Origin: Escherichia coli | GTDB lineage: Bacteria; Pseudomonadota; Gammaproteobacteria; Enterobacterales; Enterobacteriaceae | Direction: 5' to 3' (one strand) | Assembly: GCF_003334765.1 (NCBI RefSeq) | Contig: NZ_QOWT01000073.1 | DNA length: 2,550 nt | Part shown: positions 1 through 2,550 of the stretch, in pieces | Layout: each line of letters starts with the position of its first letter | Numbering within the stretch: position 1 is the stretch's first letter | Notes under the pieces: model-generated | What the model was told of the DNA's origin: nothing | Databases searched by the model: none | What the model saw: only the letters and a program-made list of their open reading frames with translations | Program-made: the position numbers and the translations under genes

Positions 1-1502
1 TTTAATCCGCGATATAACGAAGCTCCCGGAGCTGCGTAAGGTCTTTTTGGGCTTAATATTTGACAAAGGTCATAAGAATTTTTCTTTCCGAGACAGACTG
101 CACGAAGCGCTCTTTCCGCTGTGTTATTGTCCGCCTCCGCCAGACCGTCATCACAGAAGTTGCACAACGCAACCCAGTGCTTCCTGATATACCGGAACGC
201 ATCTCTCAGACGGCATTTTTTCGATAACGTGTGTTCTTTCTCCTGCATCAGCTTATACAGGGAAGTCAGTAGCGGTTTACTCTGCATTTGCCTGACCGCC
301 AGGCGTTCAGACACCGGCAACCCGCGTATTTCGTGCTCAATGGCGTACAGTTCGCCGATTAGTTTCAGTGCTTCTTCCGCCGTCGCGCTTTTGGTACTGA
401 TATATACATCGTGGATTTTGCGCCGCGCATGAGCCCAGCATCCTGCTTCCGTCAACGCGCCGCCTTCACGTTCGGCACTGAACAGCCGATCGTAACCTGC
501 GAACGCATCTGCCTGCAGGATACCCCGGAAGGGACGAAGGTGTTGCTCCGGATGTTTACCCTGATGGTCCGGTGAGTAGGCGAACCAGACCGCCGGAGGT
601 TCTGGCGAACCGGCATTTCGGTCATCCCGGACATACGTCCAGATATATCCTGTTTTCGCCTTCTTCCTGCCCGGTGCCAGTACTTTTACTGGTGTGTCAT
701 CAGTGTGAACCTTGCGGGTGTTCATCACATAACTGTACAGGGCATCATTCAGCGGCGTCATTAACTGGCAGCACGCATCAACCCAGTTGGAGAGTAAGGC
801 ACGGCTCAGTTCGACACCCTGGCGGGCAAAGATTTCACTCTGACGATACAGTGGCAGGTGTTCGCAGTATTTTCCCGTTAACACGCGGGCAAGTAACCCC
901 GGGCCCGCGATACCACGCTCTATCGGACGGGATGGTGCCGGTGCTTCAACGATGCAGTCACATTTTGTACAGGCTTTTTTTACCCGTTCTGTGCGGATCA
1001 CTTTCAGGGCGCTGCTCACCAGTTCCAGTTGTTCTGCACTGACTTCCCCCAGATAATCCAGCTCACCGCCACACTCCGGGCAACAGCTTTCTTCAGGCTC
1101 CAGGCGGTTTATTTCGCGGGGCAGATGCTCCGGTAACGGACGACGATGGCGTGACTGTCGCAACTGGCGGGGAACCTGCGGGTCATCCTCTCGCCCACTG
1201 TAACGATCGCTGTCCTGTTCGCGTTGCTTCAGCAGGGCCTCAGCCTGTTCAACTTCACGACGCAGTTTTTCAGAACGGGTACCGAACAGCATCCGGCGCA
1301 GTTTTTCTATCTGAGCCCGCAGATGTTCTATTTCCCGTTCATCTTCTTCGATCTTTTCTTCGGCACGTGCCAGCACAGAACGCAGGAAGGCCTCCGTCTC
1401 TTCAACCAGACTCAGTTGTTGGTCTTTCTGACGGAGGGCTTCAGCCTGCTCAGAGAGCAACCTTTCCAGCTCTGCGATGCGAATGAGGTATTTCTGACTC
1501 AT
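1..1502 (-). CDS. tnpC: IS66-family DDE transposase TnpC (Orf3), 3'-partial: 500 codons in window, no stop before the window edge
   Basis: ATG is the reverse complement of 1500..1502; I checked every codon in this frame down to position 3 and found no stop. Translation starts MSQKYLIRIAELERLLSEQAEALRQKDQQL (coiled-coil-like), then CPECGGEL...CTKCDC (zinc-finger-like), HTDDTPVKVL and LQADAFAGYDRLF (DDE core), GCWAHARRKIHD, and DNNTAERALRAVCLGKKN near the end. These are hallmark IS66 transposase motifs. Starts 30 bp after the tnpB stop. Confidence 0.9.
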   Translation of the reverse strand, partial: MSQKYLIRIAELERLLSEQAEALRQKDQQLSLVEETEAFLRSVLARAEEKIEEDEREIEHLRAQIEKLRRMLFGTRSEKLRREVEQAEALLKQREQDSDRYSGREDDPQVPRQLRQSRHRRPLPEHLPREINRLEPEESCCPECGGELDYLGEVSAEQLELVSSALKVIRTERVKKACTKCDCIVEAPAPSRPIERGIAGPGLLARVLTGKYCEHLPLYRQSEIFARQGVELSRALLSNWVDACCQLMTPLNDALYSYVMNTRKVHTDDTPVKVLAPGRKKAKTGYIWTYVRDDRNAGSPEPPAVWFAYSPDHQGKHPEQHLRPFRGILQADAFAGYDRLFSAEREGGALTEAGCWAHARRKIHDVYISTKSATAEEALKLIGELYAIEHEIRGLPVSERLAVRQMQSKPLLTSLYKLMQEKEHTLSKKCRLRDAFRYIRKHWVALCNFCDDGLAEADNNTAERALRAVCLGKKNSYDLCQILSPKRPYAAPGASLYRGL

Positions 1503-1532
1503 GACCGTTTTTATAATGCGGTCAGGAGTTTT

Positions 1533-1883
1533 TTACAACATTGTCAGTGAGTTAAGGCGGGATGTTTTTGGCTGACGCCAGTCCAGCTTATCGAGGAGCA
1601 TTACCAGTTGCGAACGGGTAATGGATACCTTGCCGTCACGTACCGCAGGCCAGATAAACTGGCCTTCCTTCAGGCGTTTGGTGAACAGGCACAGACCATC
1701 AGCATCAGCCCAAAGAATTTTAACGGTGTCACCCCGTCGGCCACGGAAGATAAACAGGTGGCCGGAGAAGGGATTATCATTCAGCACATGTTGTACCTGT
1801 TCTCCCAGTCCGTTGAAGGATTTACGCATATCGGTAACGCCGGCAACGAGCCAGATACGGGTACCTGATGGGAGTGAAATCAT
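1533..1883 (-). CDS. tnpB: IS66-family accessory protein TnpB (Orf2), 116 aa
   Basis: ORF-track protein MISLPSGTRIWLVAGVTDMRKSFNGLGEQVQHVLNDNPFSGHLFIFRGRRGDTVKILWADADGLCLFTKRLKEGQFIWPAVRDGKVSITRSQL..., which I recognise as the IS66 Orf2 type common in enterobacterial elements. Size and position between tnpA and the transposase fit. Confidence 0.9.
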   Translation of the reverse strand: MISLPSGTRIWLVAGVTDMRKSFNGLGEQVQHVLNDNPFSGHLFIFRGRRGDTVKILWADADGLCLFTKRLKEGQFIWPAVRDGKVSITRSQLVMLLDKLDWRQPKTSRLNSLTML

Positions 1884-2305
1884 CTTCCCCTCCCGCTCAG
1901 TTCGCGGATCAACACCGTGAGCAGCTCTGGCGATGGATTTTCCAGCGTCATGTTACCGTGACGGAACTCCACCTTGCAGGAACTGGCACTGACTCTGGTC
2001 TGAGTGGAAGTGGATAAAGACGGCGCAATGGCCGCCACAGGTTTTTTCTGCTCATCCGGCGTTATTTCTACAGGTAATAATTCAACGCCAGTGTCAGAAG
2101 AGGTCGTTACCGGAAGACGCCGCGAAACACGCCCTTCGTTCTGCCAGAGCCTGAGCCATTTGAAAATAACATTATCATTGACGCCATTTTCACGTGCAAT
2201 CTGTGCAACACAAGCTCCAGGTTGTGATGCCAGTTCCACCATACGAAGTTTGAATTCATTCGAATAGTTTTTACGAGGTTCTTTTCGCCAGTCCTGTAAT
2301 TCCAT
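1880..2305 (-). CDS. tnpA: IS66-family accessory protein TnpA (Orf1), 141 aa, HTH-like N-terminus
   Basis: ORF-track protein MELQDWRKEPRKNYSNEFKLRMVELASQPGACVAQIARENGVNDNVIFKWLRLWQ...; N-terminal region resembles the helix-turn-helix of IS3 OrfA / IS66 Orf1 proteins. First gene after the repeat; its TGA stop overlaps the tnpB ATG (ATGA at 1880..1883). Confidence 0.8.
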   Translation of the reverse strand: MELQDWRKEPRKNYSNEFKLRMVELASQPGACVAQIARENGVNDNVIFKWLRLWQNEGRVSRRLPVTTSSDTGVELLPVEITPDEQKKPVAAIAPSLSTSTQTRVSASSCKVEFRHGNMTLENPSPELLTVLIRELSGRGR

Positions 2306-2320
2306 ACTTAGATGTCCGTC

Positions 2321-2348
2321 TATATCAGATGGGCGTCTAAGTTACCAA
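2321..2348 (-). promoter_or_regulatory. Possible sigma70-like promoter for tnpA in the leader between the repeat and the tnpA start
   Basis: Minus strand reads TTGGTA (plus 2343..2348) then 16 nt then GATATA (plus 2321..2326). Weak match to consensus, and the resulting leader before the ATG at 2305 would be very short. Speculative. Confidence 0.15.
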
Positions 2349-2365
2349 TTTTCGTCTGATGGCTA

Positions 2366-2390
2366 TATACGGCGGTCAGTTTACGCTTAC
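2366..2390 (-). repeat. Terminal inverted repeat (left end) of the IS66-family element; outer boundary at 2390/2391, inner extent uncertain
   Basis: Plus strand 2371..2390 is ggcggtcagtttacgcttac; its reverse complement begins GTAAGCGTAAACTGAC. The flanking transposase reading frame runs right up to 2391 and then breaks. Length cannot be fixed without the partner repeat. Confidence 0.6.
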
Positions 2391-2550
2391 AAAACGATAG
2401 TGGCTCAGGCTCTCATTTTTCAGCGTTCCCCAGAAGCTTTCCATCGGAGCGTTGTCGTAACAGTTACCTTTACCCATAGAGGCGGATATAAGGGGAATGC
2501 CGGCAGAGCAGCGGCTTGCTGAACGTCAGCGAAAAACGAAACCGCTGTTG
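2391..2550 (-). pseudogene. IS3-family transposase (OrfB, DDE catalytic core) fragment, interrupted by the IS66 insertion; extends beyond the window
   Basis: Minus-strand translation of about 2391..2480 gives GIPLISASMGKGNCYDNAPMESFWGTLKNESLSHYRF. The CYDNA...ESF(W/F)..LK.E pattern, with K seven residues after the catalytic E, is the IS3-family signature. The frame ends exactly at the IS66 repeat junction. An in-frame TGA lies upstream at 2526..2528. Confidence 0.75.

What the first reader, a model, noticed from the sequence alone, without database searches (positions are those of the whole stretch)
1..95. tnpC diverges from the IS66-family C-terminus right after the GRKN-like motif: probable 3' truncation or rearranged right end
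Minus-strand codons at 78..92 encode LGKKN, closing the conserved DNNxAERxxRxxxxG(R/K)KN segment. In IS66-family transposases as I recall them, this is followed by (W/Y)LFxGS and a C-terminal domain of roughly 60-70 aa. Here the next residues are SYDLCQILSPKRPYAAPGASLYRGL, still open at the window edge, and neither other frame restores the motif. No GTAAGCG-type repeat is present in 1..100. Positions 1..77 are therefore probably not IS66 sequence; I cannot identify what they are.
Basis: partly seen in the sequence, partly recalled or inferred. Interest (0 to 1): 0.4.

Follow-up and report, generated by a model that had tools for sequence, protein, structure and literature searches.

The report
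ISEc45 inserted into ISEc43 transposase gene
The IS66-type transposase gene loses its normal ending at position 77 because a second, named mobile element (ISEc45, an RNA-guided IS110/IS1111-type insertion sequence) has landed inside it. This nested insertion is common, already annotated in hundreds of E. coli genomes, and always sits at the same codon.

Summary
Minus-strand codons 92..78 read LGKKN, and similarity to intact ISEc43 TnpC (473/475 identical) stops at residue 475.

The cause is an insertion, not a deletion. Window 1..76 is the last 76 nt of ISEc45, a 1,447-bp IS110-family element of IS1111 type. In the closest genome (99.8% identical over the whole window), the complete ISEc45 is followed by the missing 62 codons of tnpC, its stop codon and the GTAAGCG right repeat.

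About 600 of 5,426 complete E. coli genomes carry this same ISEc45/IS66 junction. That is about as many as carry ISEc45 at all. All seven further E. coli copies examined sit at the same codon and in the same orientation, in diverged IS66-family hosts. So do relatives in Enterobacter (73% aa) and Agrobacterium vitis (57% aa).

The non-coding region downstream of the ISEc45 transposase gene folds into a conserved bridge/seek-RNA-like structure. Its loop segments match each element's own target flanks and its own right end.

Window 1..76 lies just after that RNA. It holds a candidate -35 box (TTGACA, 60..65), the right subterminal inverted repeat (65..73) and the 3-nt terminal extension (74..76).

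This is a named element behaving as its family is known to behave. The IS66-codon specificity was not found in the searched literature. Low to moderate interest.

The parts
1..76 (+). Last 76 nt of the right end (RE) of ISEc45, an IS110-family element of IS1111 type. In the closest genome the full element is 1,447 bp.
   Evidence: Identical to L001 6001..6076, the end of a complete ISEc45 at L001 4630..6076. ISEc45 is present at >=80% length in 625 E. coli records. The conserved bridge/seek-RNA fold ends about 3 nt before window position 1. The 76 nt on their own fold no better than shuffles, z -0.57.
60..65 (+). TTGACA, a candidate -35 box of the promoter that would form when the element ends are joined in the circular intermediate. 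The -10 would be TATGAC, preceded by TGA, 17 bp away in the left end.
   Evidence: Simulated RE-LE junction. TTGAC is conserved at this position in 7 of 10 aligned relatives. No promoter is detected in the linear element. Junction promoters are documented for this family (PMC11187229, PMC11208160). This is an inference and was not tested.
65..73 (+). Right subterminal inverted repeat AAAGGTCAT. Its partner ATGACCTTT lies at the left end of ISEc45, outside the window.
   Evidence: The repeat is conserved as GGTCAT in relatives.
74..76 (+). 3-nt right terminal extension AAG. Together with the core it is matched by the donor-loop segment AUAAGAG of the ISEc45 non-coding RNA.
   Evidence: This segment follows each element's own right end across lineages: AUAAGAG, CAUCGGAG, AUGAGAG, AUAUCAG. 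A 7-nt left and 3-nt right extension is the IS1111 family rule (PMC11187229).
77..78 (.). Target core dinucleotide AA. The uninterrupted site reads ACACGT-AA-TTTTTC. ISEc45 and its relatives begin with AG, and most of their right flanks begin with AG, so this target has a non-canonical core. That explains the single ambiguous A at the junction.
78..1502 (-). ISEc43 tnpC codons 1-475, the 5' part of the IS66-family DDE transposase gene. It lacks the last 62 codons.
   Evidence: RefSeq marks the equivalent gene as a pseudogene 'missing C-terminus'.
79..89 (+). Right half of the ISEc45 target (TTTTTCTTTCC, the antisense of the GKKN codons). With the core, it is bound by the 5' loop segment (GUAAAAGAAUU) of the predicted RNA.
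   Evidence: Seven contiguous pairs for this copy and 11/11 for the L008 copy. Own-target helices average 7.8 nt against 5.0 for other lineages.
1533..1883 (-). ISEc43 tnpB, intact, 116 aa.
1880..2305 (-). ISEc43 tnpA, intact, 141 aa.
2376..2391 (-). ISEc43 left terminal inverted repeat (T)GTAAGCGTAAACTGA. This is the end of homology to intact ISEc43.

Best explanation
Window 77..2391 is an ISEc43 (IS66 family: tnpA, tnpB, tnpC on the minus strand). Its tnpC is split between codons N475 and Y476 by an ISEc45. Window 1..76 is the right end of that ISEc45.

ISEc45 is a DEDD-transposase element of the IS110 family with IS1111-type organisation:
- a 60-nt left end and a 255-nt non-coding region downstream of the transposase gene;
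- 9-bp subterminal inverted repeats with a 7-nt left and a 3-nt right extension;
- no target duplication.

The insertion is site-specific. The non-coding region encodes a bridge/seek RNA.
[quoted passage not shown] - The 3' side of a second loop matches the element's own right end plus core.

A circular intermediate recombines with the target at an AG core (AA in this target) without duplication.

The consequence is that tnpC loses the end of its DDE domain and its C-terminal domain. It reads through into ISEc45 as a 522-aa fusion and is very probably inactive.

Shown: the junction, the identity of both elements, the recurrence at one codon, and the guide/target covariation. Inferred: transcription and processing of the RNA, the circle-junction promoter, and loss of TnpC activity.
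For: **Identity of the junction**
- Homology to intact ISEc43 stops at window 77 and resumes 1,447 bp further left in L001.
- PGAP annotates an ISEc45 transposase between the two tnpC pseudogene pieces.
- The ISEc45 Tnp (377 aa) matches NF033542 at 278.9 bits against a cutoff of 140. It has DEDD_Tnp_IS110 and Transposase_20.

**Site specificity**
- 7/7 other sampled E. coli copies lie at the same codon and orientation, in ISEc43, ISEc23-like and other IS66 hosts with four different target sequences.
- The RE/IS66 junction is found at >=80% coverage in 637 records (602 genomes). ISEc45 itself is found at >=80% in 625 records (587 genomes).
- The Enterobacter relative (73% aa) and the A. vitis relative (57% aa) lie between GRKN and FLFFGS / WLFAGS of diverged IS66-family TnpCs.

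**RNA**
- The non-coding-region fold has z = -2.9 against shuffles.
- The consensus structure over 10 elements has 34 pairs, 20 of them with compensatory changes.
- Loop segments match the element's own DNA better than that of other lineages. Mean longest helix, own against other: RTG 7.8 vs 5.0, LTG 6.0 vs 3.9, LDG 6.9 vs 4.9.
- Specific covariations: the L009 guide changed CACGU to CAUAU and sits in target CATAA; the L008 guide GAAAAAGAAUU is the exact complement of AATTCTTTTTC; L010 has CAGGU against target CAGGA.

**Agreement with published work**
- The architecture fits IS1111 seekRNAs, where the top-strand match lies 5' of the bottom-strand match (PMC11187229).
- It also fits the bridge-RNA guide definitions, in which the core is included in each pairing (PMC11208160).
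Against: - Only 76 nt of ISEc45 lie in the window. Whether the copy in the source genome is complete rests on the five genomes that match the whole window at 99.6-99.8%. RE-only remnants exist elsewhere (H57 and H60).
- The guides of this copy fit the ISEc43 target imperfectly: 7 contiguous pairs on the right, and an AA core where the donor has AG.
- The right-donor guide test did not discriminate own from other ends (5.0 vs 4.9).
- No Rfam family matches the non-coding region.
- No strict sigma-70 promoter or terminator was found. The proposed -10, TATGAC, lacks the conserved final T.
- The Tnp is 377 aa, longer than the 330-350 aa quoted for IS1111-family transposases.
- Many of the ~600 junctions could descend from a few insertions, spread by mobilisation of interrupted IS66 copies in trans or by vertical descent. 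Only about six independent events are demonstrated.
Confidence: 0.9

Rival explanations
1. Simple 3' truncation or deletion junction. The end of tnpC and the right IR of ISEc43 were lost, and unrelated DNA now abuts position 77.
For: Within the window alone the ORF loses homology and no right IR is visible. Some loci do carry secondary deletions next to ISEc45, for example L004, where the left end abuts the tnpC stop region, and L010 and L011, where the upstream part of tnpC is truncated.
Against: Window 1..76 is identical to the end of a complete ISEc45. The missing 189 nt and the IR are present and colinear on the other side of it in the closest genomes.
Confidence: 0.04
2. One chance (untargeted) insertion of ISEc45 into an IS66 copy, later spread by descent, horizontal transfer and trans-mobilisation of the composite. 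The recurrent junction would then say nothing about target choice.
For: ISEc45 copies are 97.4-100% identical, and many junctions have identical flanks (L001, L003, L005, L007). Interrupted IS66 copies keep both IRs and could be moved by intact copies.
Against: The same codon boundary and orientation occur with four different E. coli target sequences. They also occur in Enterobacter and A. vitis elements only 73% and 57% identical in Tnp, inside IS66 TnpCs only 38-65% identical over the C-terminal fragment that remains. Loop segments covary with the targets.
Confidence: 0.04
3. The junction is an assembly or chimera artefact at a repeat boundary.
For: IS-rich regions are prone to misassembly. 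The two flanks of ISEc45 in L001 differ in their identity to reference ISEc43, 96.4% against 99.8%.
Against: The identical junction is present in more than 600 complete (mostly long-read) genomes, on both chromosomes and plasmids.
Confidence: 0.01

Closest known systems
ISEc45 (ISfinder name, IS110 family; RefSeq 'IS110-like element ISEc45 family transposase', WP_000555401.1)
   Same: Window 1..76 is 100% identical to the right end of this element. The context is the same as in hundreds of E. coli genomes.
   Different: Nothing differs in sequence. Its target preference for the IS66-family tnpC (R/K)KN codons was not found in the searched literature.
IS1111-family elements with a seekRNA (ISEc11, ISKpn4, ISPa11; Siddiquee et al. 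2024, PMC11187229)
   Same: The long non-coding region lies downstream of the transposase gene. There are subterminal inverted repeats with 7-nt and 3-nt extensions, and no target duplication. The top-strand match lies 5' of the bottom-strand match in the RNA. Candidate -35 and -10 boxes (untested) lie in the RE and LE and would form a promoter only at the circle junction.
   Different: The Tnp is 377 aa, against the typical 330-350. The subterminal repeat is 9 bp perfect, against the usual 11-13. The target is a protein-coding motif of another IS. There are no experimental data for ISEc45.
IS621 bridge RNA (Durrant et al. 2024, PMC11208160)
   Same: There are two internal loops. [quoted passage not shown]
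   Different: The RNA is encoded in the RE rather than the LE. The guide order is reversed. The core is AG rather than CT. The right-donor guide is not supported here.
[quoted passage not shown] IS4321 and IS5075, which target Tn21-family terminal repeats, are a further example.
   Same: The strategy is the same: an RNA-guided IS that uses a conserved sequence of another mobile element as its landing site.
   Different: The host family (IS66) and the motif (GRKN followed by W/Y/F-LF) are different, and the element has IS1111-type rather than IS110-type organisation.
ISEc43 / IS66 family (tnpA-tnpB-tnpC)
   Same: Window 77..2391 is 99.8% identical to intact ISEc43.
   Different: tnpC is interrupted. 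No 8-bp target duplication flanks this copy.

Membership tests
IS66 family (ISEc43) | Three-gene arrangement tnpA-tnpB-tnpC on one strand | tested here: met
   ORFs at 2305..1880, 1883..1533 and 1502..78 on the minus strand.
IS66 family (ISEc43) | TnpC with complete DDE_Tnp_IS66 and DDE_Tnp_IS66_C domains | tested here: not met
   The window ORF matches the DDE model at 1-274/284 and has no C domain. Intact ISEc43 has both. The missing part lies beyond ISEc45 in L001.
IS66 family (ISEc43) | Terminal inverted repeats beginning GTAAGCG | tested here: met
   One repeat is at window 2384..2390 on the minus strand. The other is at L001 4412.., outside the window.
IS66 family (ISEc43) | 8-bp target site duplication | tested here: not met
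   The flanks are CAGCTTTC and AAAACGAT. The copy is probably rearranged or a hybrid.
IS110 family, IS1111 group (ISEc45) | DEDD (RuvC-like) transposase with a Transposase_20 C-terminal domain | tested here: met
   PF01548 and PF02371, and NF033542 at 278.9 bits. Tested on L001; the gene lies outside the window.
IS110 family, IS1111 group (ISEc45) | Subterminal inverted repeats with asymmetric extensions (7 nt left, 3 nt right) | tested here: met
   AGATGAT-ATGACCTTT ... AAAGGTCAT-AAG. The repeat is 9 bp perfect, within the 7-17 bp range of PMC11208160 but shorter than the 'usually 11-13' of PMC11187229.
IS110 family, IS1111 group (ISEc45) | The longer non-coding region lies downstream of tnp | tested here: met
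   61 nt lie upstream of the start codon and 255 nt from the stop codon to the right end, L001 5822..6076.
IS110 family, IS1111 group (ISEc45) | No target duplication; specific target and orientation | tested here: met
   The empty site ACACGT-AA-TTTTTC was compared with the filled site. One A is ambiguous and is accounted for by the core. The site and orientation are the same in all 8 E. coli copies read (L001 and L003-L009) and in 2 relatives from other genera.
IS110 family, IS1111 group (ISEc45) | Transposase length 330-350 aa (range quoted for IS1111-family Tnps) | tested here: not met
   377 aa. This falls in the 345-385 aa range given for an IS110 subgroup. Placement within the family by phylogeny was not done.
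Bridge RNA / seekRNA | Structured RNA from the non-coding region, with conserved stems supported by covariation | tested here: met
   RNAalifold gives 34 pairs, 20 with compensatory changes. The single-sequence fold has z = -2.9. This is computational only.
Bridge RNA / seekRNA | Loop segments complementary to both strands of the target, core included | tested here: met
   Own against other lineage: RTG 7.8 vs 5.0 nt and LTG 6.0 vs 3.9 nt, with natural guide/target co-changes.
Bridge RNA / seekRNA | Second loop complementary to the donor ends (LDG and RDG) | tested here: inconclusive
   The LDG matches the element's own RE plus core in every lineage (6.9 vs 4.9). The RDG does not discriminate (5.0 vs 4.9).
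Bridge RNA / seekRNA | The RNA is expressed, binds the transposase and is required for transposition | not testable with these tools
   This needs RNA-seq, RNP purification and transposition assays as in PMC11187229.
Bridge RNA / seekRNA | Match to a curated RNA family | tested here: not met
   Rfam 15 gives no meaningful hit on L001 4580..6130.

The most novel reading that the evidence does not exclude
ISEc45 and its closer relatives (at least 57% Tnp identity, from E. coli to Agrobacterium vitis) form a lineage of RNA-guided IS1111-type elements specialised on IS66-family transposons. Their right-target guide is essentially a copy of the sense-strand (R/K)KN codons of tnpC. Every insertion therefore cuts off the C-terminal domain of the host transposase. 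The elements would be dedicated 'parasites of a parasite' and a natural brake on IS66 activity. This specificity appears not to be described in the literature searched.
Probability: 0.55. Interest if true: 0.4.

Novelty: already known. Interest (0 to 1): 0.22.

Why it matters
For annotation, the apparent 'truncated' IS66 transposase is a nested-IS pseudogene. Window 1..76 should be labelled as the ISEc45 right end, not as unknown DNA.

More broadly, this adds a clear natural example, with built-in guide/target covariation, of an IS110/IS1111-type RNA-guided recombinase that uses conserved codons of another transposase as a safe landing site. ISEc21 does the same with IS3-family genes. The natural guide/target pairs listed here, including tolerated mismatches and an AA core in place of AG, could inform specificity rules for bridge/seek-RNA recombinases. 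None of this overturns current understanding.

Tried and rejected
- **Rfam scan** of the whole ISEc45 at a permissive E-value gave only chance hits, SNORD65 and Xist.
- **Promoter and terminator scan** of the linear element found no sites. The hairpin plus T-run inside window 1..58 is therefore not claimed as a terminator.
- **Fold of window 1..76** is no better than shuffles, z = -0.57.
- **Right-donor guide (RDG) test** did not separate own from other ends. The RDG is left open.
- **Literature searches** for ISEc45, for ISEc43, and for IS110 or IS1111 together with IS66 found no description of this target. ISEc45 appears only in the transposase sequence and identity tables of PMC11187229.
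- **More distant relatives** (45-53% aa: L012-L021, including ISSso6) are not in IS66 tnpC. IS66 targeting is therefore limited to a subclade.
- **An earlier mis-count** of the insert as 1,446 bp was corrected to 1,447 bp once the shared A was assigned.
- **Metagenome and genome-collection scans** were not used. They were judged unnecessary for this question.
Full report
**1. Observation**

The minus strand of the window carries a complete IS66-type gene set: tnpA (2305..1880), tnpB (1883..1533) and tnpC starting at 1502. The tnpC frame stays open to the window edge. The other two frames contain stops and do not restore a (W/Y)LFxGS motif.

Against the intact 537-aa ISEc43 TnpC, the window protein is 473/475 identical up to N475 and unrelated after that. 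The intact protein continues YVFFGSDHGGERG.... Pfam and NCBIfam agree. The DDE_Tnp_IS66 match stops at model position 274/284 and the IS66 C-terminal domain is missing, whereas the intact protein has both. The only GTAAGCG-type repeat in the window is the left IR at 2384..2390.

**2. What positions 1..76 are**

A megablast of the window against 5,426 complete E. coli genomes found five genomes that match all 2,550 bases at 99.6-99.8%. Many others match only from position 77.

In the best match (NCTC9082, locus L001), RefSeq annotates in order: an IS66 pseudogene piece 'missing N-terminus'; an intact 'IS110-like element ISEc45 family transposase'; and then the ISEc43 tnpC 'missing C-terminus' that corresponds to the window.

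Aligning an uninterrupted ISEc43 (plasmid locus L002) to L001 shows two colinear blocks. L002 3001..5315 equals L001 6077..8391, which is window 77..2391, at 99.8%. L002 2777..3001 equals L001 4406..4630 at 96.4%.

The empty site reads ...GAAGAACACGT-AA-TTTTTCTTTCC. The filled site reads ...ACACGT-AG-ATGAT-ATGACCTTT...AAAGGTCAT-AAG-AA-TTTTTC. The insert is 1,447 bp, L001 4630..6076. Window 1..76 is its last 76 nt, and nothing of tnpC has been lost. The missing 62 codons, the stop codon and the right IR (GTAAGCGTCAACGG) lie on the other side of the insert. The read-through frame that leaves the window ends at a stop 65-67 nt further on, giving a 522-aa fusion.

**3. The inserted element**

The ISEc45 transposase (377 aa) matches NCBIfam NF033542, 'IS110 family RNA-guided transposase', at 278.9 bits against a cutoff of 140. 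It also matches Pfam DEDD_Tnp_IS110 and Transposase_20.

The element has these features:
- 61 nt before the start codon, and 255 nt from the stop codon to the right end;
- 9-bp perfect subterminal inverted repeats, ATGACCTTT and AAAGGTCAT;
- a 7-nt left extension (AGATGAT) and a 3-nt right extension (AAG);
- no target duplication.

These are the features that define the IS1111 type (PMC11187229; PMC11208160). The Tnp is longer than the 330-350 aa quoted for that group, so its exact placement within the family is left open.

**4. Site specificity**

Seven further ISEc45 copies were taken from across the identity range in E. coli chromosomes and plasmids. All lie in an IS66-family tnpC, antiparallel to it and at the same codon boundary.

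The host elements differ (ISEc43, ISEc23-like and others), and so do the target sequences:
- ACACGT|AA|TTTTTCTTTCC
- ACATAA|AG|TTTTTCTTTCC
- ACATGT|AA|TTCTTTTTCCC
- ACATAA|AG|TTTTTATTTCC

Reconstructed empty sites translate to ...CLGKKN|YVFFGS...CLGKKN|FMFFGS and ...CLGKKN|YMFFGS.

A 200-nt probe made of 100 nt of RE and 100 nt of tnpC is covered at 80% or more in 637 records (602 genomes). ISEc45 itself is found at 80% length or more in 625 records (587 genomes). So essentially every ISEc45 in E. coli sits at this site.

A tblastn search of plasmids found relatives in other genera.
- The Enterobacter element (73% aa, same repeats and extensions) lies between ...SLGRKN and FLFFGSDHGGERG of a diverged IS66 TnpC.
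- The Agrobacterium vitis element (57% aa) lies between CLGRKN and WLFAGSDKGGER.
- Ten more distant relatives (45-53% aa, including ISSso6) are at other sites.
- All four of those whose ends could be defined (L012-L015) begin with AG and are followed by AG. This defines an AG core. The ISEc43 target has AA, which explains the single ambiguous A at this junction.

**5. Mechanism**

The 255-nt non-coding region folds better than shuffles (z = -2.9). An alignment of ten elements gives a consensus with 34 pairs, 20 of which show compensatory changes. The consensus consists of:
- a long closing stem;
- a first internal loop bounded by CCUC/GAGG;
- a second loop around a GGGG/CCCC hairpin.

The structure ends about 3 nt before window position 1.

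In the first loop, the 5' side (ISEc45: G[U/A]AAAAGAAUU) is complementary to the top strand of the core plus right target. The 3' side (CACGU-AG) equals the left target plus core, so it pairs with the bottom strand. The 3' side of the second loop (AUAAG-AG) equals the element's own right end plus core.

Each segment follows its own element across lineages:
- right-target guide: GUCGAGAAUU with AGTTCTCGAC; GUUAGCGCU with AGCGTTAAC; CGUACGUU with AGCGTATG;
- left-target guide: CAGC-AG, CGUA-AG, UUCUU-AG;
- left-donor guide: CAUCGG-AG, AUGAG-AG, AUAUC-AG.

The mean longest helix with the element's own DNA, against that of other lineages, is 7.8 vs 5.0, 6.0 vs 3.9 and 6.9 vs 4.9 nt. The right-donor side did not discriminate (5.0 vs 4.9).

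Within ISEc45 itself there is natural co-variation:
- the L009 variant changed CACGU to CAUAU and sits in target CATAA;
- the L008 copy has GAAAAAGAAUU opposite AATTCTTTTTC, 11/11 pairs.

The copy relevant to the window pairs over 7 contiguous positions on the right, and over 8 on the left when wobble pairs are counted. It has a core mismatch.

This is the architecture described for IS1111 seekRNAs, with the top-strand match 5' of the bottom-strand match. It also fits bridge RNAs, with their LTG, RTG and LDG guides that include the core. Expression of the RNA, its binding to the transposase and its requirement for transposition are inferred by homology and were not shown here.

**6. What the 76 nt in the window contain**

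They lie downstream of the RNA structure and fold no better than chance. They carry:
- TTGACA at 60..65;
- the right subterminal repeat at 65..73;
- the extension AAG at 74..76.

Joining RE to LE in silico places TTGACA 17 bp from TGA-TATGAC in the left end, and TTGAC is conserved in 7 of 10 relatives. This fits the circle-junction promoter documented for this family. The -10 is imperfect, and no promoter is called in the linear form. It remains an inference.

**7. Comparison and novelty**

Both elements are named and annotated, and the nesting itself is routine.

IS110-type elements that land in conserved sequences of other mobile elements are known. ISEc21 targets the DDE codons of IS3-family genes. 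IS4321 and IS5075 target the Tn21 repeats (reference list).

I found no paper describing the ISEc45 target. The IS66 GRKN-codon specificity and its conservation from Enterobacteriaceae to Agrobacterium may therefore be undescribed. It would still be a new instance of a known behaviour.

**8. Verdict**

Confidence in the nested-insertion explanation is about 0.9. It is somewhat lower for the details of RNA guidance. Interest is low to moderate.

Noticed in passing
L001 4406..4630 compared with window 77..2391: The tnpC remainder and right IR on the far side of ISEc45 are only 96.4% identical to reference ISEc43, whereas the window part is 99.8% identical. No 8-bp target duplication flanks this ISEc43 (CAGCTTTC vs AAAACGAT). 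The two halves may come from different IS66 copies, joined by recombination between ISEc45 copies.
   Followed up: partly
window 2398..2484 (minus strand): This stretch encodes SMGKGNCYDNAPMESFWGTLKNESLSHYR, a remnant of an IS3-family OrfB (integrase core). ISEc43 abuts it directly.
   Followed up: partly
window ~2485..2550 (plus strand): This stretch encodes GMPAEQRLAERQRKTKPLL, an internal piece of another IS66-family TnpC. PGAP marks the equivalent as a pseudogene at L001 8476..8928. The region is a mosaic of IS fragments between espI and iha in the closest genome.
   Followed up: partly
L004 (plasmid NZ_CP023530.1) 1440..1500: In this copy the ISEc45 left end abuts the stop-codon region of tnpC. 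About 150 nt of the tnpC remainder next to the left end are deleted.
   Followed up: no
L009 (NZ_AP038228.1), positions 1272-1273 of the ISEc45 element: This ISEc45 variant has CG changed to TA in the left-target guide (CACGU to CAUAU) and lies in a CATAA|AG target. It looks like natural retargeting within a single IS species. The same variant has four more changes in the apical part of the target loop.
   Followed up: partly
L001 6061..6076 compared with ISEc23/IS682 empty sites (rows H72-H92): The last ~16 nt of the ISEc45 right end (CAAAGGTCATAAG-A) resemble the left half of ISEc23-type targets (CAAAGAACATAA-AG) closely enough for megablast to extend across them. The donor left arm and the target left arm are similar.
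   Followed up: no
window 1880..1883: The tnpA stop codon and the tnpB start codon overlap in ATGA, the usual IS66 coupling. tnpB and tnpC are separated by 30 nt.
   Followed up: no
Klebsiella pneumoniae plasmids (H108-H112): ISEc45-like transposase genes 96.5-97.1% identical at the protein level, but covering only residues 1-344, recur on several Klebsiella plasmids and are not annotated there. They are probably truncated copies.
   Followed up: no
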